In this document: positions 6,001 through 49,171 of the stretch, in pieces
Layout: the number at the start of each line of letters is the position of its first letter
Numbering within the stretch: position 1 is the stretch's first letter
Source: a virus
IMG/VR virus record: IMGVR_UViG_3300001868_000005
Reading direction: 5' to 3' (one strand)
DNA: 64,000 nt
Program-made: the position numbers and the translations under genes
Notes under the pieces: generated by a model
The model's input: only the letters and a program-made list of their open reading frames with translations
What the model was told of the DNA's origin: nothing
The model's database searches: none

Positions 6001-8791
6001 TCAAGAACCAACAACTAAGGTCAAACCCGAAAATATTTCGAGTGATTTCAAAACTTTTATAACCGATATTAAAAAAATTGTCAACGACAATCAAAACAAT
6101 AAAGACCTCAGAAAAGAGGAACTTGTTAAAAAGTTTGTCTCTGAATTAGGAATTGATAAAAATTCTGCTGAAAAAATCTACGATGCAATAAAAATAGAAG
6201 CGGATAAGATTTATAAAAAAGAAATTACAAAATTATTTACTCAAAAGTTTGGAATAATAGGTAAACGAGTAAGCGTAAAAGGCAAAGCATTTGAAAAGTT
6301 AGCAGGTGACGTTGAAAGAGGTGTGTTTGATGAAAACTACGATCAATTTGCTACCGGAATATCAGAAAAATATGGATTAAGAGAACTAACTACAGAAGAA
6401 GCTAAGATTTTAGGTGAATCAATAAGGGCGGCCAAAGCAACATCTGATGGGCCACTTGGAGAAATTGCGATGTTTAAAGCATCTAAGATTTGGGAATTCT
6501 TAATGCCACGAGATCCCATGTTAATCGGAATGATTAAAACAGGAATCGGTATAACGTATGAAAATATGCTATCGGGGCCGACTACTCAGTTTGCGAATAT
6601 GATTCCAAATATTATGAACATTTCATCTAAGGGATTTGAGAGAATAACAAATCCAGGTAGATGGGGTGATTGGTATAAAGGAATAAAAGAGTCCGAAAAA
6701 AGATTTATAGGTGATGCAGCCAAAAGGACGCCTTTATATAATATGATTGAGACTTATTATCTTTACTCTAAATCCGTAGAAACAGCAAGAAATATAGCAT
6801 GGAGAATATTAAGACACGGAGGAATAAGCAGTACTAAATACACCGAAGGAACTGACGTAAAAACAGTAATGTCTCATGTTCCTAACTCGGAGTTACTCAG
6901 GTTCGGGGATTTGGGCGATGTGCATAATATGACCCGCTATCAACGAATAATGATCGGCAAGTGGAACGCAAACCCTACCGAGATGCTAAAGTATATCACA
7001 AGGTCATTAGATGCTGGGGATAGGTCTATTCAGCATATAGCCAAATCTGATGCTATTGCACAGCTTTTAAGATGGGCACAAAGAGAGGACTTAAAAACTA
7101 ATTCCCACGAAAATGAAAATGCAGTATTAAATGATGTTTTCAGTGATATGTTTTATTCTAAAATGTCCGACGCTCAGAGAGAAATTGTCGACCAAAGACT
7201 TCAAGAGGCAGTAAATAAATATATCCAGAACGTAAAAGAATTTCCAAGTAAACCGCAAGTAGCAGAACAAAGGGCTTTTATTATCGAAGGTCTGGCTAGA
7301 GAGAAATATAAAATAGATCCCGAAAGATGGAACCTTATGGAAGAAGACGTAAGAAAAGCCGTATTCAGAGGAGAAGGAGGAGGAACGTTTACAATGATGG
7401 CAGACCTCATAGGTAGGTGGGCTAGTCATAATTTGGCTACAAGGGTTTTCTTTATGCAATTTGTCCCATTTACATCAATAATTGGTCACATGGGAGACTA
7501 TGGACTAGACTACGTGGTAGGTATTCCAAGGTCTTACGGAATAAGCATCACACATGGACTTTCTAAAATAAATCCTAACATTAAATCAGGAAAAGCCGGA
7601 GAAAGAGGTCTTGATGGGTTAATACCAGAATCCTTAAAAAGACAAAGGGATAGAGGTTATTTCGGATTGGCTATGATGACTGTTGGCGCTGCTTTATTCT
7701 TTGGAAACAAAGACAATGAAATCCACGGAAGCATGGCGTATGACGACATAGACAACAGAGATGATGCTTTCACCGCTAAGATAGGTAATTTTAAGTTTAA
7801 TTACTCTATCTATCCACAGTTGATGTTGCCTTTTGGGTTTTTGGGTTCACTTCAGGATATGAAAAGTGCCGGAATAATTAAAGAAAACCAAACTAACCTT
7901 AACATTCTTGATTCGGAGAATAAAAGACAAGCGTTTGCAACTTCTATGATATATTTTGACGCTTTCGTAAAGTCTCTTTCTGTTATAAAAGAACAATCAG
8001 TATTAAGTGGATTGAATAATTTAATAACCGTAGGTCAAGACGCTATTGGAAACCAGACAAGTTTTCAGAAACAACACGCATTAGGAGAGGTTGCCAATCC
8101 AACAGTCGAACCACAGGAGAAAGATAAAAAACTGCCAAAACCCGTAAAAGATATGATGAGTATTTTCGGGAAAGGAGTTACAGGATGGCTACCAACAAGG
8201 AATAATTTAATACAACAAGGATTAAGGTTTTTCGACCCGCATAAAAAACAAGGCTTAACTGCATGGGATATTGTAATGAACTCCATGGGGACTCAGGTAT
8301 TTACCAATGGTGACGCATTAAACGTACTTGGGGACAAGCAAACACTATATCCCGGAACGAACCAAGTCTACTACTCAAAGACGCCCGACCCGTACAAGGA
8401 TTTTATGAGAGAATGGAAAGCACAGCCCAAAAAACTCGATCCTTATGCTTTTTATACTGTAATTTCTGCTGATGCCGTAAAACAAGTAGAGACACCAAAA
8501 GGAATGGTTAATGATACAACTTGGTCGGCAAAGAAGGTTCAGCTTGACGAAAAACAATTCAGAAAATACGTCGAGGAAACCGGAAAACAGTTTAAGATGC
8601 AAATTGACGTACTAAAAAATGCCACAGAGTTTGTAAAAGATTACGCTCCGATAGTTTTAAATGAAGGCAAGCCCGGAGTTCAAACAGAAACCCTTATGCA
8701 GAAAAAAGTAGGTGAAGCGTGGAATAGAGCTAAATTGCTCGCACTTCCGGCTATTCAAATAAATAATATTCAACCAATACCTAATCCATAA
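2..8791 (+). CDS. Giant virion-associated (internal/DNA ejection-like) protein, 5'-truncated, >2900 aa
   Basis: Frame is open from base 2 (PVSKQLRDLYDF...) through the listed GTG at 95 to TAA 8791. Gly/Ala-rich N-terminus, long charged coiled-coil middle and helical C-terminus are typical of podovirus ejection proteins; lies upstream of tail genes. Confidence 0.65.
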   Translation, partial: PVSKQLRDLYDFKLKKVSDYYLDPTRELKDFVVTPQDDPYTVNLKNYAHQAWTNREANPILAPLLGTAKQIIGGVKRSIIDPTYGVANIISDALIGIGVPPPPKILSNESIAKGLDYIPVVGDLFNRYEDMNRNVPDLPEGTPNTFGGNVAKVANTILGGAAQLPGMMGGMEIGVGLTGGIRAGKLGLTMAGYMGGEEFLNKYNDLSKENTPVIDKLKASIAAGIEGAVQGMAMEGITNAAPYVAANVAAKGALGKEAWKTADEATKAAARDISQAKGEGWWTAKMMGFLGWGNLDLISQYMQNGYVDPYVAVGNGLFGGVVTEAGIHKAEGIDIGSEAMGKRFDHWLQATPEESKMISSIKTPIREMRQAASKMAEKVVDPKDITVEQNENGTHTISANFNLENKTQQELSSLGMGEFLTKIANVKESSDEIANYPQFFTEKTNEHLANGDITPEQHAILLKKISEDVANHDPINIKSEEIQNEIDVLNQKIAGVDAGYDIPVVKKVKIESLNKQIKEKTAQIENIVNGVPEIKPAETPAEPIKPELPKTEEEQIADIEQRRQNEFNNTQGTVLLRSSIPIIESVIAGDRVYRAGITSTANSASVSINKNFTNIAGTEVRLNESEFKEYSTLNGLLENEIITRKEYSDKMDELGRRVLERGLGENKITDHRSELITGESINEKYDNEIKALKTEQNPQIINPKPEPNGKEKTNAEADNNKKSDVSTKNANETDQKGLLNPELPKTDVVTGEQPVATSILNQENDLKGEKKNDAMLEVKRSNSVDDLKPDDIVIVKGNNQPDMEMSFRGFDNKGNAVVYSKKDGQFSVKKSEITPKDSKVIGYDNTENIAYALENGIYQKWVGEGRISQLDAETIIKSAGLEVPKELQSVGDNTTPTENRPPTELEIVKINLGFAEKDLSDAENYLIKAGGNVLAPELKYNTEKRAFNNKRIKELNAEIARLSGDGKIENKKVLNETPKEILYSIKGKDVVAEITVKNNTDMIGVEYSDGKTEYFKKDKLSDLKSHTPTEKVIEPKVEPEIFEPKQAKVKSVSDKATEQLKRDRIKKQVADSKVLREDKDRVLGELSTIRETIKEDLEVKGDFKTTQEVYDWHVSAFGTVGNLITDNVRSKLKEKGINIDEKGYVTIKTPKGEFKFPVADIASIEKAVKQDYPSNTTAGKAKSDPITSPRQRTYVNQLDKNGRYKTKEQVLSDIESQIRMHEENIAQAKKTGNTKLIETFQKEIDNLKEYHGQAKVTDFEQREIERIITEDLRDNPLMKLVSKLNEKGVKIDKIEFGKKLLALNMADYKLGKNEGIVDFNNAMDEALRIKQGYDGNKTIESVLAKHNRELNRLHDERNSITGRKSKERDRKYESVNSRIKETEDKITTLENNKPLIEQALKNEPYEYRGGKQIKIEPARDTRIIISEAQAIENKAKLDKSRTDFEESIARVDKIIDEIDNKVDEVNKFDKARQTIESLREPTKAFIESKIGVNTPKDVVKNGIGMDELVDGLFDFAKKSIDIAEGVTERAKLIKEFLDLQRENLKDYVENIEEVIQKLADKFKAEYKQEPVIEPKVTEFPPLSEAGKSGEIKESGKTFQTVADFVRTYEGIELKGIDKFANDYIENMSVDRAYDEVIRKIPDVEVAPAFQAIRGRLLEVLSDDAATKMTSGENIDALAEKIDRLGQVWSKEGTKMGQASSVNALFQKLNHLYVENRVRDAKLKAKQLKEKPIKEVAKEVVTKRKQSFEKGIDGADKKLKLIHDQVPVVKKERGQKIKEANELIQKGRDIWRNSRGQMNVITTATAEFLKGARYITEGLVKKGYYEVGRIVEEVNKLAKTHGIDFSKHQKELSEIAKEEIDKMKFGQVDKLINPEPKAKKETKETLNSKYRDLIKEVKTGDVEKLVDKFVSDLELGETEAGKLREKLLTEANKVRSEHDLSIQEKEAKKQATEDKKQAEKEQAKTDKEIADWKKKYENIPTEEEFNQSVVDDVFSLIEKNNQEPTTKVKPENISSDFKTFITDIKKIVNDNQNNKDLRKEELVKKFVSELGIDKNSAEKIYDAIKIEADKIYKKEITKLFTQKFGIIGKRVSVKGKAFEKLAGDVERGVFDENYDQFATGISEKYGLRELTTEEAKILGESIRAAKATSDGPLGEIAMFKASKIWEFLMPRDPMLIGMIKTGIGITYENMLSGPTTQFANMIPNIMNISSKGFERITNPGRWGDWYKGIKESEKRFIGDAAKRTPLYNMIETYYLYSKSVETARNIAWRILRHGGISSTKYTEGTDVKTVMSHVPNSELLRFGDLGDVHNMTRYQRIMIGKWNANPTEMLKYITRSLDAGDRSIQHIAKSDAIAQLLRWAQREDLKTNSHENENAVLNDVFSDMFYSKMSDAQREIVDQRLQEAVNKYIQNVKEFPSKPQVAEQRAFIIEGLAREKYKIDPERWNLMEEDVRKAVFRGEGGGTFTMMADLIGRWASHNLATRVFFMQFVPFTSIIGHMGDYGLDYVVGIPRSYGISITHGLSKINPNIKSGKAGERGLDGLIPESLKRQRDRGYFGLAMMTVGAALFFGNKDNEIHGSMAYDDIDNRDDAFTAKIGNFKFNYSIYPQLMLPFGFLGSLQDMKSAGIIKENQTNLNILDSENKRQAFATSMIYFDAFVKSLSVIKEQSVLSGLNNLITVGQDAIGNQTSFQKQHALGEVANPTVEPQEKDKKLPKPVKDMMSIFGKGVTGWLPTRNNLIQQGLRFFDPHKKQGLTAWDIVMNSMGTQVFTNGDALNVLGDKQTLYPGTNQVYYSKTPDPYKDFMREWKAQPKKLDPYAFYTVISADAVKQVETPKGMVNDTTWSAKKVQLDEKQFRKYVEETGKQFKMQIDVLKNATEFVKDYAPIVLNEGKPGVQTETLMQKKVGEAWNRAKLLALPAIQINNIQPIPNP
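2124..2219 (+). CDS. Putative nested small basic peptide in the +1 frame of the giant gene (MVKKKPMPKPTITRKVTLAPKMPMKPTKKGC)
   Basis: ATG 2124 to TAA 2219, 31 aa, Lys/Pro/Met-rich; AT-rich upstream context attattaatcctaaacccgaaccaa. Confidence 0.4.
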   Translation: MVKKKPMPKPTITRKVTLAPKMPMKPTKKGC

Positions 8792-8814
8792 TCGTTCTAA
8801 ATTACTGACACCTA

Positions 8815-8845
8815 TTGCATTTTGATTTTTTGTGTTGTAAATTTG
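8815..8845 (+). promoter_or_regulatory. Bacteroidota sigma70-type promoter
   Basis: TTG 8815, 20 nt, TAAATTTG 8838-8845. Confidence 0.65.
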
Positions 8846-8857
8846 TCGAAAAAAAAT

Positions 8858-9268
8858 ATGGACAAATTAGCAATGCTTCAAAACGCACATGAGGAGATTT
8901 ATAAGAATACCGCAATTATTGAAAGCATAAACAGCGACATTAAGAATGACTTAGAATCTTTTGTAAAGAAAAACTATGGAGAGACCAAAGTAAAAAGGGG
9001 TGAAAAAGAATTTGAATTTTTTCAGTGTATAGTCGCTACGTCTCGTTATGATACAAGTAGTACAACCATTAGATTGTATTTTGTTATTTGCAGTAAGGTA
9101 GAAAAAAGGGTACGGGAAAGCATTGAAAAAGAGGTAAGGTATATAAAAGAAGATACATTTCAGGTGTGGGTTAGAGATAGGTATCTGAATCGCTTTATCC
9201 TTCAAATGGACTACAGTATAAAAATTGAACAAGTATTTGATGGAAAAATATCCCTAAGGATAGAATAA
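8858..9268 (+). CDS. Hypothetical protein
   Basis: ORF track 8822-9268; ATG 8858 is the likely start because it follows promoter TAAATTTG at 8838. Confidence 0.7.
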   Translation: MDKLAMLQNAHEEIYKNTAIIESINSDIKNDLESFVKKNYGETKVKRGEKEFEFFQCIVATSRYDTSSTTIRLYFVICSKVEKRVRESIEKEVRYIKEDTFQVWVRDRYLNRFILQMDYSIKIEQVFDGKISLRIE

Positions 9269-9312
9269 ATTATTTGTATCCATTCTAAATAGTGTCTAAA
9301 TTACAAAATCGC

Positions 9313-9372
9313 TTGCTTTTTCAATAAAATTGATATTACCTTTGCATTCACCCAAATAATGTACTATCTTTG
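9313..9372 (+). promoter_or_regulatory. Tandem Bacteroidota-type promoters upstream of the candidate ncRNA
   Basis: TACCTTTG 9337-9344 and TATCTTTG 9365-9372. Confidence 0.6.
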
Positions 9373-9377
9373 CTATG

Positions 9378-9750
9378 TCATTTGTTAGGGGTGATGTCTT
9401 AAAATCTGCGGTTCTAAACAAACCAACGAAACCCCTGAGAAAGCAGACCCTAACCTACTTTTGATGGGGTTTTGCTTTTAGGCAGATGACTAGGGTTTCA
9501 GTTGCATCTTTTCCCTAGTCTGATTATATCGAGATAACCCAAAGTGCTGACACGAAAACATAATCAACCGCAAAAAATTACTATGCTCTATCCAAAATCT
9601 GATAACATAGAACCGCAGAGAAAAGTTTGATTATGGGTCTTGCATAAAAACCGTGAAAAGCCAGAGCTAAACGGATCTCAAGAGAGATGGGGGTGCATTA
9701 TTCAGAGTGTCTGACTAAATCGAAAGATTTGGTACCTCCTGCGGGGGATA
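9378..9750 (+). ncRNA. Candidate structured non-coding RNA (~370 nt)
   Basis: ORF-free region after promoters at 9337/9365. Perfect helices 9405-9416/9608-9619 (12 bp), 9488-9495/9513-9520 and 9559-9567/9627-9635; GAAA-capped hairpin 9714-9733. Confidence 0.55.
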
Positions 9751-9793
9751 AAGATTTTCTATTTCCTTATTCATATTTAATCTAAATATTCAG

Positions 9794-9824
9794 TTGCATA
9801 AACTTTAAGAAATGGCTATCTTTG
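9794..9824 (+). promoter_or_regulatory. Promoter of the tail/lysis operon
   Basis: TTG-20-TATCTTTG. Confidence 0.75.
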
Positions 9825-9847
9825 TAGAGAAATAAAAATCTACAATT

Positions 9848-18279: not shown

Positions 18280-18370
18280 TATCTTTGCCTTATCGTGTCG
18301 CTGCGGTAGAAAATTTATTGTAAAAGCCTAACCCGGAGAGACAGCGACCTCGAAGGGATTAGGCTTTTTT
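18280..18370 (+). promoter_or_regulatory. Promoter plus pseudoknotted leader RNA of the HNH gene
   Basis: TATCTTTG 18280; GTCGCTG 18297-18303 complementary to hairpin loop CAGCGAC 18342-18348. Confidence 0.7.
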
Positions 18371-18387
18371 GTTTCAATTAAATAATT

Positions 18388-19065
18388 ATGACAGGAGTAT
18401 TTGAAGACTTAACAGGTAAAAGGTTTAACAGACTTACGGTTATCGGTAAGGTAAAAAACACAAAATGTGTGACATGGGAATGTAAGTGTGATTGTGGGAA
18501 AACAATTTATGTTACCACACAGCCACTAAATAGTGGGCACACTAAAAGTTGTGGGTGTTTCAAGGGGGATAAACTAGGAGAGTTTGCTACTACACATGGA
18601 AGGAGTGCAGAGAACAAAAGGCTGTATAATATGTGGAGGGCTATGATTGATAGGTGTTATAATAAATCTATTGCTAATTATAAAAATTACGGAGAAAGGG
18701 GTATCTCGGTATGTGAATCATGGCAGGATGTAAATGTGTTTTTTGAATGGGCATTAAAAAATGGGTATGAGAAAAACCTACAAATAGATAGAAGAAATAA
18801 TGATGGGAATTATTGCCCTGAAAATTGTCATTTTGTAACAGCGTCGTACAATAGCAGAAATCAAAGGGTAAAAAAGAGCAATACAACTGGATTTGTGGGT
18901 GTTAGTAAGGAAACAGGGAGAGAAACCTATGCTTATGCTATTAACTGTGGCAACAAAAGATATAGAAAGGCTGGATTTCCAACAGCAATGGAATGTGCAA
19001 AAGCAAGAGATAGGGTTATTGTTGACAATAAACTAGATGGATTCAATCTTAATAAATATGAATAA
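18388..19065 (+). CDS. Free-standing HNH-type endonuclease with AP2-like C-terminus
   Basis: DLTGKRFNRLTV, W.CKCDCG, SCGC, RLY..W..M..RC, QIDRRNNDGNYCPENC, then NTTGFVGVS. Confidence 0.85.
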   Translation: MTGVFEDLTGKRFNRLTVIGKVKNTKCVTWECKCDCGKTIYVTTQPLNSGHTKSCGCFKGDKLGEFATTHGRSAENKRLYNMWRAMIDRCYNKSIANYKNYGERGISVCESWQDVNVFFEWALKNGYEKNLQIDRRNNDGNYCPENCHFVTASYNSRNQRVKKSNTTGFVGVSKETGRETYAYAINCGNKRYRKAGFPTAMECAKARDRVIVDNKLDGFNLNKYE

Positions 19066-41884: not shown

Positions 41885-42106
41885 TTAAATTATTTCTGCC
41901 AGACGTTTGTTTAGATAGTCGAGACACTCGTTATTATGTTCGATATTGTTATTTAAACCAATAATCAAAGCCCTTAGTTTGTCGTTTCGGCTTAAATTTC
42001 CATCTAACACGATTTCTTTGGCGAGGTTTTTAATAATCAGCCGGGTTTCTTTTGTGTCCTTATCGGTAAACCTTACAAATTTTTCCAGTATTTCTTTCTC
42101 TTTCAT
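41885..42106 (-). CDS. Hypothetical protein
   Basis: 73 aa coupled ORF. Confidence 0.55.
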   Translation of the reverse strand: MKEKEILEKFVRFTDKDTKETRLIIKNLAKEIVLDGNLSRNDKLRALIIGLNNNIEHNNECLDYLNKRLAEII

Positions 42107-42513
42107 TTGTATGTTTCAATTATGGAAATATACAATAATCTGTCTGGAATAAAATTAGACTTTGCCCTAATTTCGAGTAGTTGTAATTCTTCTGGACTGA
42201 ATTTGTTCTGCATGAACTTTGTATATTCAATTAAATTACCCGATAGGTGTGTATTACAGCGGTCACATTGGGCAAAAGTATTATTTAGGTCGAATTCAGT
42301 TCCAGGATGATTACCTGCGCTCCAGTAGTGTCCTGCGTGCATTTTAGTGCCTCGTATAATGAAATTCTGACCACACGAACAACAGGTAAACCACGATTCA
42401 TCTTTAGTATCTCTTTTTCTGACAAAGGCATGGAAATACTTCTTAGCTGTTTTTTTGAGTGCAGGCAGTGATTTACTTTTGTATTTCTGTATTTGTTGTG
42501 CGGTTAGTTCCAT
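42103..42513 (-). CDS. ninG: NinG-family recombination endonuclease
   Basis: F..FVR.RD....CCSCG....HAGHY......T.FDL.N...QC.RCN..LSGNLIEY...(M/L). Confidence 0.85.
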   Translation of the reverse strand: MELTAQQIQKYKSKSLPALKKTAKKYFHAFVRKRDTKDESWFTCCSCGQNFIIRGTKMHAGHYWSAGNHPGTEFDLNNTFAQCDRCNTHLSGNLIEYTKFMQNKFSPEELQLLEIRAKSNFIPDRLLYISIIETYK

Positions 42514-44837: not shown

Positions 44838-45223
44838 ATAATATTCAGCAAAGAAGAAGATTAATTAAATTTAACAGAATAATGAACGAAAAAACAAAAG
44901 AATTACTAAAAGATATTATGACATTCCACCACGAAAGCGGAAGCGTAACAACACCGGACGTAGAGGACATCCAAAATGTTTACGATATTGTAATGTACGA
45001 AGTTGGAGACAAATTAAAAGAGCTTCAACACTTTAAGGATTCGTCGGTTGGTTTATTTTGTACCGACAAAAAACCAAAGGACTTGTTTTTAAATTCAATA
45101 AAAGATCAGTTCGATGTAATTCCAATTTATTCAAGCAAAAACCAATTAGTCGAGAATGTGGTGGCGCATTTTGATAAATTATGGAAAGAGTATTGTGATA
45201 GGATATTTTTTCAACTAAAGTAA
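44834..45223 (+). CDS. Hypothetical protein
   Basis: Coupled ORF. Confidence 0.55.
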   Translation: MNNIQQRRRLIKFNRIMNEKTKELLKDIMTFHHESGSVTTPDVEDIQNVYDIVMYEVGDKLKELQHFKDSSVGLFCTDKKPKDLFLNSIKDQFDVIPIYSSKNQLVENVVAHFDKLWKEYCDRIFFQLK

Positions 45224-45241
45224 AATTAATATAAATAAATT

Positions 45242-45598
45242 ATGGCAAATTATGAATTGAGCGGAAAACTCTTCGAGAAATTTCCGACACAGCAGGTAAC
45301 AGATAAGTTCAGAAAAAGAGAACTGGTCATCGAAGTTGCAGGAAGCAATTACACGCAACATATCAAGTTGCAACTCACAAAAGAACGTTGTGATATATTG
45401 GATAAATTCAATATAGGAGACGAAGTAAGGGCTACCATAAATATCAACGGCAGGCGTAGTGAAAAAGACGGCAAGGTTTCTTATTGGAACTCTCTCGATA
45501 TTTGGAAACTGGAATTGGTTAGTACAACGAACACATCAGCAAATCCAGCACAAGAAGTACCGTTTGAAGCTACGCCTGATGATGACCTACCCTTCTGA
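45242..45598 (+). CDS. ssb: Single-stranded DNA-binding protein (DUF3127-like)
   Basis: F.KRELVIE....Y.Q.I..QL....C..LD....GDEV....NI.GR; acidic DDDLPF tail. Confidence 0.85.
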   Translation: MANYELSGKLFEKFPTQQVTDKFRKRELVIEVAGSNYTQHIKLQLTKERCDILDKFNIGDEVRATININGRRSEKDGKVSYWNSLDIWKLELVSTTNTSANPAQEVPFEATPDDDLPF

Positions 45599-48509: not shown

Positions 48510-48606
48510 TATCTTTGTATCTGAAATCTGACGACCAGCAGATAAACAGTAATTATTTCTGAAAACCTTGTTCCGAGAGTCTGGTCGCTCAAAGAACGAG
48601 GTTTTC
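48510..48606 (+). promoter_or_regulatory. Promoter plus pseudoknotted leader RNA
   Basis: TATCTTTG 48510; CGACCAG 48532-48538 complementary to loop CTGGTCG 48581-48587; 13-bp stem. Confidence 0.7.
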
Positions 48607-48622
48607 TATTTTAAACAAACTT

Positions 48623-49171
48623 ATGAAAAAAGAACCACATTTAATCAAAGTTGACGGAAAGCTATTTTACGAAATGGCAGAGTTTCTAATCGAAAAGGAT
48701 GCAAAAGACACTGACGAGTACGGTGACGTATTAATTCGTGTTCAGAACGCACAACAGTACGCTTTTGGCAAAGCAACAGAGTACAGACCTCGTTATAAAG
48801 AACGTGGCACAGGCGACCTGCTTATGTTCTGGATGAACGTGTACGAGGTACTTCAGGACGTACATATCTCAAAAGAACCAATGCAGGCTGAATCTGATGA
48901 ATTAGAAATCAATGAAACAAGAATTGCAGATCAGGATATGGAGTGCGGTGCTTGTGAGTGGTTCAAGAATAACGATATTGACATTTCTGGATTTACCAAA
49001 TCCAAACAAAAGAATGTAAGAAAAGCAGAAAAGAACGGATTTAAGATCCTAAAGGGTGAAAAATATTTGTACCAGAAAACAACTAACGAGGACGGTGATG
49101 AATTTGAGTTTACCGCTATCCGGGCTATACATGAGATTTGTGGTAAGTATGGGATCTATCAATACGATTAA
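48623..49171 (+). CDS. Hypothetical protein with own promoter and structured leader
   Basis: 182 aa ORF after promoter 48510-48517. Confidence 0.65.
   Translation: MKKEPHLIKVDGKLFYEMAEFLIEKDAKDTDEYGDVLIRVQNAQQYAFGKATEYRPRYKERGTGDLLMFWMNVYEVLQDVHISKEPMQAESDELEINETRIADQDMECGACEWFKNNDIDISGFTKSKQKNVRKAEKNGFKILKGEKYLYQKTTNEDGDEFEFTAIRAIHEICGKYGIYQYD

What the first reader, a model, noticed from the sequence alone, without database searches (positions are those of the whole stretch)
9378..9750. ~370-nt ORF-free, promoter-driven structured RNA with two mutually exclusive folds
Seen: a 580-bp gap with two promoters (9337, 9365) and no useful ORF. It holds a perfect 12-bp long-range helix TCTGCGGTTCTA (9405-9416)/TAGAACCGCAGA (9608-9619), an 8-bp hairpin (9488-9495/9513-9520), a 9-bp helix CATAATCAA (9559-9567)/TTGATTATG (9627-9635) crossing the long helix, a GAAA-tetraloop hairpin (9714-9733) and small 3' hairpins. 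Alternative partners exist: 9407-9413 can pair with AACCGCA at 9566-9572, and 9560-9566 with TGATTAT at 9521-9527. The 5' end carries a copy of the loop-pseudoknot leader (GTTAGGG 9384-9390 / CCCTAAC 9448-9454). Inference: a phage ncRNA or bistable RNA switch sitting between the ejection gene and the tail operon. I do not recognise its family.
Basis: partly seen in the sequence, partly recalled or inferred. Interest (0 to 1): 0.8.

Follow-up and report, generated by a model that had tools for sequence, protein, structure and literature searches.

The report
ORF-less phage RNA cassette with hairpins
An uncultured peat phage carries a promoter-driven stretch of about 380 bases with no gene in it; it starts with a known-looking leader and contains several small hairpins kept in one diverged relative, but the long-range "switch" helices are no better than chance.

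Summary
The gap 9269-9847 has no ORF in any frame or under any single stop reassignment. Both promoters fit the phage's own consensus. Rfam and ARAGORN find nothing.

The site is an insertion hot spot. Three relatives have an empty junction, three carry homing-endonuclease genes there, and only the window phage and one diverged relative (L009) carry this cassette.

The first ~100 nt are a copy of the kissing-loop terminator leader that this scan has already noted, on this phage and on other DNA, in front of homing-endonuclease genes. Its loop pairing covaries in L009.

In the body, the local hairpins H2, Hm, Ha and Hb are kept in L009. Across Hm and Hb, 14 of 14 pairs are kept, 5 of them changed on both sides.

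One 12-bp repeat per 64 kb is at chance level (1.8 expected). L009 as a whole folds no better than shuffles.

A decayed small gene is a live rival.

Verdict: probably a real accessory non-coding RNA cassette made of a chain of hairpins, function unknown, not a bistable switch. Only two lineages are known. Interest is moderate.

The parts
9295..9344 (+). Promoter P1 (-7 box TACCTTTG at 9337-9344). It is homologous to the promoter that drives an HNH endonuclease gene in relative L007 and a 73-aa ORF in L009.
   Evidence: blastn: 94% identity to L007:40-89 and 92% to L009:1698-1748. Sequences read. L007's protein matches Pfam HNH.
9341..9372 (+). Promoter P2, a full Bacteroidota-type consensus (TTTG, 20 nt, TATCTTTG). 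Its -33 element overlaps the -7 box of P1.
   Evidence: Pattern match. CTATCTTTG occurs 10 times against 0.66 expected in the window. Conserved in L009.
9378..9480 (+). Kissing-loop terminator leader. The 5' arm GUUAGGG (9384-9390) pairs with the loop CCCUAAC (9448-9454) of hairpin 9429-9435/9466-9472, which is followed by UUUUGCUUUU.
   Evidence: Same layout as the copies at 18280-18390 and 48510-48625. L009 has GUCAGG/CCUGAC, one compensatory pair; the stem is 7/7 identical. Pairwise alifold z = -4.2, SCI 0.72.
9488..9520 (+). Hairpin H2 (GACUAGGG/CCCUAGUC), directly after the leader.
   Evidence: In L009: 4 pairs the same, 1 one-sided G-U, 1 compensatory, 2 gapped. alifold z = -2.2 to -2.8 on the + strand, +0.3 on the - strand.
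9521..9532 (+). Conserved unpaired island 1, UGAUUAUAUCGA. It is repeated with 2 changes at 9712-9723.
   Evidence: Identical in L009. Internal repeat found.
9581..9610 (+). Hairpin Hm: CUAUG/CAUAG plus UAUC/GAUA, with an 8-nt loop.
   Evidence: All 9 pairs are kept in L009; 2-4 are changed on both sides, depending on the alignment. alifold z = -5.5 to -5.8 for the middle segment.
9651..9674 (+). Hairpin Ha (CCGU...ACGG, with inner stem AGC/GCU).
   Evidence: L009 has CCGA...UCGG, one compensatory pair. The same two-tier shape appears in the separate folds.
9675..9688 (+). Hairpin Hb (AUCUC-AAGA-GAGAU).
   Evidence: L009 has AACUC-GAAA-GAGUU, one compensatory pair and 5/5 paired. Ha plus Hb alifold z = -4.0 to -4.5 on the + strand, -2.3 on the - strand.
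9709..9718 (+). Conserved island 2, GUCUGACUAA.
   Evidence: Identical in L009. It lies in a stem in the window and in a loop in L009.
9732..9765 (+). Variable 3' end: a weak hairpin (CCUCC-UGC-GGGGG) followed by a U-rich tract. Inferred end of the transcript.
   Evidence: L009 has a different, stronger hairpin plus UUCUUUUU at the same place. No shared structure under the alignment (z = +1.5). The terminator scan finds nothing here.
9766..9847 (+). Promoter P3 of the 168-aa tail-operon gene (-7 box at 9817-9824). Not part of the cassette; it marks the right border.
   Evidence: Conserved in all relatives L005-L009. 93-97% identical in L009.
9405..9619 (+). Judged not to be a functional helix.
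   Evidence: One per 64 kb observed against 1.8 expected. L009 keeps 7 of 12 pairs, none compensated.

Best explanation
The gap holds an accessory, self-promoted, non-coding cassette. It was inserted at a junction (giant virion-protein gene | tail operon) that is empty in some relatives and holds free-standing homing-endonuclease genes in others.

Shown:
- Promoter P2 is a consensus promoter of this phage.
- The first ~100 nt are a member of the kissing-loop terminator leader family that precedes HNH genes in this phage, and the pairing covaries.
- No ORF follows.
- Local hairpins H2, Hm, Ha and Hb and two unpaired 10-12-nt islands are kept in the one diverged homologue, while the rest drifts at roughly neutral rate.

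Inferred:
- Most transcripts stop at the leader hairpin plus U tract (~9480), giving a ~100-nt RNA.
- Read-through gives a ~380-nt RNA built as a string of independent hairpins, ending at a weak hairpin plus U tract just before P3.
- The RNA itself, rather than a protein, is the cargo that the leader doses.
- Its target or role is not known. It is not a two-state switch built on long-range helices.
For: - ORF-free in all frames and codes.
- Promoters.
- Leader layout matches the other copies. The kissing pair covaries and the stem is identical in L009.
- Insertion status: empty junction in L008 and L071/L072. HNH or AP2-type endonuclease genes at the same place in L005-L007. P1 is shared with L007's HNH gene.
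- The cassette homologue L009:1981-2500 is collinear with the window.
- Hm and Hb: 14/14 pairs paired in both sequences, 5 changed on both sides, 0 broken; slid controls give 25-44% paired. RNAalifold predicts the same helices without guidance.
- Column-shuffle z: -4.2 (leader), -5.8 (Hm segment), -4.0 to -4.5 (Ha/Hb). The minimum among 32 control coding windows is -3.7.
- H2 and Ha/Hb score better on the + strand.
- No third-codon-position excess of substitutions.
Against: - Only two lineages exist, so covariation rests on one pairwise comparison.
- The Hm and leader signals are as strong on the - strand. DNA-level palindromes, or quasi-palindrome correction, could mimic compensation.
- L009 as a whole is not more stable than shuffles (z = -0.95).
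- The 3' third shares no structure between the two sequences (z = +1.5).
- An ATG sits where the other leader copies have their start codon. L009 has a 73-codon open run in that frame (p = 0.037), and codon usage mildly favours that frame (p = 0.03 to 0.08). This hints at a dead gene.
- There is no transcript evidence.
- No target was found in the phage for the conserved islands.
Confidence: 0.5

Rival explanations
1. Dead gene cassette. The leader once controlled a small protein gene of about 80-100 codons or a homing-endonuclease gene. The ORF has decayed. The insert persists because it is harmless, or because any insert splits the target of endonucleases that attack the empty site. The hairpins are incidental or leftover signals.
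For: - ATG 9486 lies 13 nt after the leader hairpin. The start codons at 18388 and 48623 lie about 17-20 nt after theirs.
- In L009 that frame reads ATG GGG TTT TAA TAA, then 73 open codons ending in the conserved GACTAA (p = 0.037).
- The window's stops TGA TAA align with L009's TGT CAA.
- Codon score is best in that frame in both sequences.
- The body's identity of 40-63% per 30-nt window is about neutral by my estimate.
- The site is a homing-endonuclease hot spot.
Against: - Substitutions show no codon-position bias: 9/27, 7/29, 11/30.
- The window has 6 in-frame stops. No canonical start exists for L009's open run.
- The conceptual peptide has no hit among 1.84 billion representative proteins, Pfam, PHROGs or the Atlas.
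- There is no tblastn/tblastx similarity to any HNH or other gene of the window or the fetched loci.
- The codon score is equalled by a - strand frame.
- Neutral decay does not explain 5-7 compensated pairs with none broken.
Confidence: 0.3
2. A long regulated 5' leader of the tail operon. Transcripts from P1/P2 that pass the leader terminator run through the hairpin region into the 168-aa gene. This would add a second, separately timed input to tail-gene expression.
For: - Same strand as the tail operon, and directly upstream of it.
- The 3' hairpin plus U tract of the window is weak, and no terminator-like site passes the scan.
Against: - The tail gene keeps its own promoter P3, conserved in every relative. 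It is expressed from P3 alone in the empty-site relatives.
- L009 has a better terminator-like hairpin plus U run before P3.
Confidence: 0.1
3. One reading: a ~370-nt bistable RNA switch. Its two folds are set by the 12-bp helix 9405-9416/9608-9619 and the crossing 9-bp helix 9559-9567/9627-9635, together with their 7-mer alternatives.
For: - The helices exist.
- The 12-bp pair is locally improbable (p = 0.004).
- The segment 9400-9625 folds with z = -5.3.
Against: - Genome-wide, one 12-bp repeat is at expectation (1.8 per 64 kb).
- The same segment gives z = -4.3 on the - strand, so it behaves as a plain inverted repeat.
- In L009 the 12-bp helix has 3 broken and 2 gapped pairs, and the 9-bp helix has 2 broken and 2 gapped; nothing is compensated.
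- The single-sequence MFE fold does not use the full 12-bp helix.
Confidence: 0.03
4. A DNA-level element, such as a transcription-primed origin, a packaging or recombination site, or protein-binding palindromes, rather than an RNA.
For: - The hairpin signals are nearly strand-symmetric.
- Two tandem promoters in front of non-coding DNA recall promoter-primed phage origins (T7 and T4; from my own knowledge).
- The short motif TTCTAAAT(TAC) recurs at cassette borders.
Against: - The tandem promoters are not conserved: in L009 a 73-aa ORF separates them.
- There is no GC-skew change at this point.
- Protein-binding palindromes keep their letters, not their complementarity.
- G-U pairs favour the + strand RNA in H2 and Ha.
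Confidence: 0.07

Closest known systems
Kissing-loop terminator leader of homing-endonuclease and early-gene cassettes in Bacteroidota phages. Seen repeatedly by this scan (e1-5348694, e1-5354353, e1-3428426). Not in Rfam.
   Same: Consensus promoter; a 5' 7-mer that pairs with the loop of a terminator-like hairpin; GAGA motif in the loop; U tract; covarying kissing pair.
   Different: No protein gene follows here. About 280 nt of hairpin-rich non-coding RNA follows instead. The spacer between the 5' arm and the hairpin is about twice as long (about 38 nt against 17-22).
Free-standing homing-endonuclease cassettes of T4-type phages and their expression limits, for example the intrinsic terminator inside T4 mobE (Wilson and Edgell 2009, PMC2790892).
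   Same: Insertion between conserved genes at a site that is empty in relatives. A terminator-like hairpin that would throttle transcription. Relatives carry HNH genes at the very same junction.
   Different: There is no endonuclease ORF and no detectable remnant of one. mobE has no promoter of its own, whereas this cassette has two.
Phage morons: self-contained units of promoter, cargo and terminator inserted between conserved genes (general concept, from my own knowledge).
   Same: Own promoter; a hairpin plus U tract at the end; present or absent among close relatives; bordered by repeated promoter-upstream motifs.
   Different: The cargo appears to be RNA, not protein.
Large structured phage and bacterial ncRNAs in Rfam (GOLLD, ROOL, HEARO, raiA and others).
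   Same: Several-hundred-nucleotide ORF-free structured RNA on a phage.
   Different: No Rfam model reaches threshold. All six matches at E up to 10 lie far below their gathering scores and are eukaryotic snoRNA or miRNA models or a cut-off CRISPR repeat. This RNA is a chain of short hairpins with no conserved long-range architecture.

Membership tests
Kissing-loop terminator leader (scan-internal family, not in Rfam) | Lies directly downstream of a Bacteroidota-type promoter (TTTG ... TAnnTTTG). | tested here: met
   P2 at 9341-9372. The CTATCTTTG box is enriched 15-fold in the window.
Kissing-loop terminator leader (scan-internal family, not in Rfam) | A 5' 7-mer complementary to the loop of a hairpin that is followed by a U tract. 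| tested here: met
   9384-9390 pairs with 9448-9454. Stem 9429-9435/9466-9472, then UUUUGCUUUU. The copies at 18280 and 48510 have the same layout.
Kissing-loop terminator leader (scan-internal family, not in Rfam) | The kissing pair is kept by matched changes in homologues. | tested here: met
   GUUAGGG/CCCUAAC in the window against GUCAGG/CCUGAC in L009. This is one homologue only.
Kissing-loop terminator leader (scan-internal family, not in Rfam) | Followed within about 20 nt by the start codon of a protein gene. | tested here: not met
   ATG 9486 opens only 10 codons. L009's ATG opens 3 codons.
Any Rfam 15 family | Covariance-model score at or above the gathering threshold. | tested here: not met
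   No match in the whole window. All matches at E up to 10 lie far below gathering, in both the window and L009. No tRNA or tmRNA.
Bistable RNA switch or riboswitch | Two mutually exclusive helices, both conserved or covarying among homologues. | tested here: not met
   The 12-bp and 9-bp helices and one 7-mer alternative are broken in L009. The other 7-mer is split by an insertion. None is compensated.
Bistable RNA switch or riboswitch | A ligand or other trigger that shifts the fold. | not testable with these tools
   Needs probing experiments.
Free-standing homing-endonuclease cassette | Encodes an HNH, GIY-YIG, LAGLIDADG or AP2-type endonuclease. | tested here: not met
   No ORF. No translated similarity to the HNH or AP2 proteins of the window or its relatives.
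Free-standing homing-endonuclease cassette | Inserted between conserved genes at a site that is empty in relatives. | tested here: met
   L008 and L071/L072 are empty. L005-L007 hold endonuclease genes there.
Pseudogene of a small protein | An intact homologous ORF exists elsewhere. | tested here: not met
   P0013 has no hit in 1.84 billion representatives, Pfam, PHROGs or the Atlas.
Pseudogene of a small protein | Frame-consistent coding remnants. | tested here: inconclusive
   Open run p = 0.037, codon score p = 0.03-0.08, but no codon-position bias and an equally high - strand frame.

The most novel reading that the evidence does not exclude
The cassette is a new kind of accessory phage element: a self-promoted RNA cargo with no protein. 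It uses the dosing leader of homing-endonuclease genes and competes with those genes for the same intergenic insertion site. It might, for example, occupy and so protect the site, or act in trans on host or rival-phage functions through its two conserved unpaired motifs.
Probability: 0.12. Interest if true: 0.7.

Novelty: new variant of a known kind. Interest (0 to 1): 0.4.

Why it matters
If the body hairpins are truly under selection, the kissing-loop leader module of Bacteroidota phages can carry an RNA cargo as well as nuclease or early protein genes. Homing-endonuclease hot spots would then also collect non-coding cassettes. That would give a concrete candidate for a phage non-coding RNA in a group where almost none are known.

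If it is instead a decayed gene, it is an ordinary stage of the invasion, decay and loss cycle of selfish cassettes. Its main use would then be as a marker of that hot spot.

Tried and rejected
- Known RNA: Rfam at gathering threshold and at E up to 10, on the window and on L009, and ARAGORN. Nothing found.
- Alternative genetic codes: the stops are of mixed type in every frame.
- Decayed HNH or AP2 gene: tblastn of the relatives' endonucleases and tblastx of the gap against the whole window and all loci. Nothing found.
- Paralogues in the window: only the promoter regions match.
- GenBank phages: no blastn or megablast match.
- IMG/VR and GTDB genome scans for the P1 promoter, the leader 21-mer, the Ha/Hb pattern and the two islands. 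The only hit, L070, is a chance match in an unrelated high-GC contig.
- Exact-protein look-ups gave only identical copies of the two variants.
- The upstream 148-aa ORF has no relative beyond the phage's own copy.
- The small ORFs 9375-9464, 9544-9630 and 9687-9785 are not kept in L009, judged by eye from the alignment.
- Targets for the two conserved islands in the phage are at chance level.
- The codon-usage score looked like strong coding evidence at first. It shrank to p = 0.03-0.08 against composition-matched random sequence, and a - strand frame scored as high.
- One background run timed out and was repeated with fewer shuffles.

Full report
**1. The observation**

The window is a phage from a peat or bog metagenome. 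Identical copies lie on a 76-kb JGI contig and on Logan contigs. The gap 9269-9847 separates a 148-aa orphan ORF, which follows a protein of more than 2,900 aa, from a 168-aa gene with InlB B-repeat domains that opens a tail-fibre-like operon.

The gap has no ORF above 41 aa. Each of the six frames holds 9-19 stops of mixed type, so no stop-codon reassignment opens a frame.

The two -7 boxes fit the Bacteroidota TAnnTTTG type. P2 has the full TTTG-20 nt-TATCTTTG consensus. CTATCTTTG occurs 10 times in the window against 0.66 expected, and those occurrences include P2 and the tail-operon promoter P3.

**2. Is the structure more than chance?**

- The + strand of 9378-9760 folds with z = -3.5 to -3.6, the - strand with about -1.
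- Against 128 same-size windows of this phage (mean -0.17, sd 1.3), 2 reach -3.5. The region is unusual but not extreme.
- The 12-bp inverted repeat is improbable within the 383 nt (p = 0.004). It is, however, the only one in 64 kb, where random sequence gives 1.8 +/- 1.2. It also stabilises both strands (z = -5.3 and -4.3).
- Repeats of 9 bp or more are expected 0.32 times per 383 nt.

**3. Known families**

Rfam gives nothing at gathering threshold. At E up to 10 only spurious matches appear: eukaryotic snoRNA or miRNA models and a truncated CRISPR repeat. This holds for the window and for the homologue. There is no tRNA or tmRNA.

**4. Context in relatives**

Relatives of the 168-aa gene were collected.

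- L008, and L071/L072 found through the giant protein, have the giant gene followed directly by promoter P3 and the tail gene. The site is empty there.
- L006 and L007 carry an HNH endonuclease gene at the site (Pfam HNH). L005 carries the C-terminus of an AP2-type endonuclease.
- P3 is conserved in all of them.
- P1 of the window gap is 94% identical to the promoter of L007's HNH gene.

The junction is therefore a hot spot for selfish cassettes, and the stretch under study is an insertion rather than a fixed feature of the lineage.

**5. The one homologue**

L009 comes from the same JGI sample. Its tail gene is 90% identical in protein to the window's. Its layout is: giant gene | P1 | 73-aa ORF | P2 | a region collinear with window 9341-9847 | P3. 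L068 and L069 are identical to L009.

Per 30-nt window, identity is 63-90% across the promoter and leader, 40-63% across the body from 9539 on, and 93-97% in P3. L009 also lacks an ORF there.

**6. The 5' part**

Earlier notes of this scan (e1-5348694, e1-5348696) describe a leader in front of HNH genes of this same phage, in which the transcript's 5' end pairs with the loop of a terminator-like hairpin. I read two of those copies.

The segment 9378-9480 has the same layout: GUUAGGG pairs with CCCUAAC in the loop of stem 9429-9435/9466-9472, followed by UUUUGCUUUU. In L009 the pair is GUCAGG/CCUGAC, a matched U-A to C-G change, and the stem is identical. Pairwise RNAalifold with column shuffles gives z = -4.2. 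This part is a genuine member of that leader family.

**7. The body**

Each window helix was tested on the sequence-only alignment.

- Kept: H2 (one compensatory pair, one G-U), Hm (9 pairs), outer Ha (CCGU/ACGG to CCGA/UCGG) and Hb (AUCUC/GAGAU to AACUC/GAGUU).
- On the MAFFT alignment A7, Hm and Hb give 14/14 pairs formed in both sequences, 5 changed on both sides and none broken. Partners slid by 1-3 columns give 25-44% paired.
- RNAalifold predicts the same helices unaided.
- Column-shuffle z is -5.8 for the Hm segment and -4.0 to -4.5 for Ha/Hb. Thirty-two control windows from the flanking coding alignments have a minimum of -3.7.
- Not kept: the 12-bp helix (3 broken, 2 gapped, none compensated), the 9-bp crossing helix, Hc, Hd (deleted), the GAAA hairpin He (4 broken), and the 9690-9766 part as a whole (z = +1.5).
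- L009's region as a whole folds no better than shuffles (z = -0.95).
- Two unpaired islands are identical in both sequences: UGAUUAUAUCGA and GUCUGACUAA. In the window they are imperfect repeats of each other. No complementary target stands out in the phage.

**8. The dead-gene rival**

For:
- ATG 9486 lies where the other leader copies have their start codons.
- In L009 the same frame reads ATG GGG TTT TAA TAA and then stays open for 73 codons, ending in the conserved GACTAA. Such an open run has p = 0.037.
- Two window stops, TGA TAA, align with L009's TGT CAA.
- A codon-usage score favours this frame in both sequences.

Against:
- Measured against composition-matched random sequence, the codon score reaches only p = 0.026 (window) and 0.06-0.08 (L009), and a - strand frame scores as high.
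- Substitutions show no third-position excess: 9/27, 7/29, 11/30.
- The conceptual peptide has no relative in 1.84 billion representative proteins, Pfam, PHROGs or the Atlas.
- Nothing resembles the endonucleases.

I keep this rival at about 0.3.

**9. Reading**

The most likely reading is an accessory non-coding cassette with four parts: a consensus promoter; a kissing-loop terminator leader that should stop most transcripts near 9480; a chain of small, independently folding hairpins kept by compensatory change; and a weak hairpin plus U tract before P3.

The switch model built on long-range helices is not supported.

Caveats:
- There are only two lineages.
- The covariation signals are largely strand-symmetric. 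Only H2 and Ha/Hb favour the + strand.
- There is no expression data.
- Function is unknown.

The closest published analogue for the throttling step is the intrinsic terminator in T4 mobE (PMC2790892).

**10. Novelty and score**

The leader has already been found by this scan, on this phage and on other DNA. What is new here is an ORF-less RNA cargo behind it, at a homing-endonuclease hot spot. This is a new variant of a known kind. Interest is 0.4.

Noticed in passing
window 8789-9847; L005-L009, L071: The junction between the giant-protein gene and the tail operon is an insertion hot spot. It is empty in L008 and L071/L072. L006 and L007 hold an HNH gene there, L005 an AP2-type endonuclease, L009 a 73-aa ORF plus the RNA cassette, and the window a 148-aa ORF plus the RNA cassette.
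   Followed up: yes
window 8792-8806, 9279-9302, 9779-9790; L009:1690-1706; L008:567-580: A short motif, TTCTAAAT(TAC), lies just upstream of each cassette promoter. It flanks the 148-aa ORF cassette on both sides. This suggests that cassettes are swapped by recombination at promoter-upstream repeats.
   Followed up: partly
window 8822-9268: The 148-aa ORF upstream of the gap is an orphan. It has no relative in IMG/VR, and only the phage's own copy among 5.8 billion proteins. It is absent from L009 and from every other relative.
   Followed up: partly
L009:1759-1980: A 73-aa ORF of unknown family is driven by P1 in L009. It is missing in the window, where P1's -7 box overlaps P2's -33 TTTG, as if the ORF had been deleted between the two promoters.
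   Followed up: partly
L002 end (= window ~9352); L069 end (= L009 ~2443): Logan contigs of both strains from one run (SRR3989260) break at the borders of the cassette. This is as expected when two co-occurring strains share the promoters but differ in between.
   Followed up: no
L071:3501-12332 (P0012): The giant protein of a 52%-identical relative carries a precomputed Pfam ddrB-ParB (PF18763) hit. The window's own giant protein gave no Pfam hit, so the label 'ejection protein' is untested.
   Followed up: no
window 42001-42383 and 45001-45383, + strand: Two other 383-nt windows fold with z of about -4 in the background scan, as low as or lower than the region under study.
   Followed up: no
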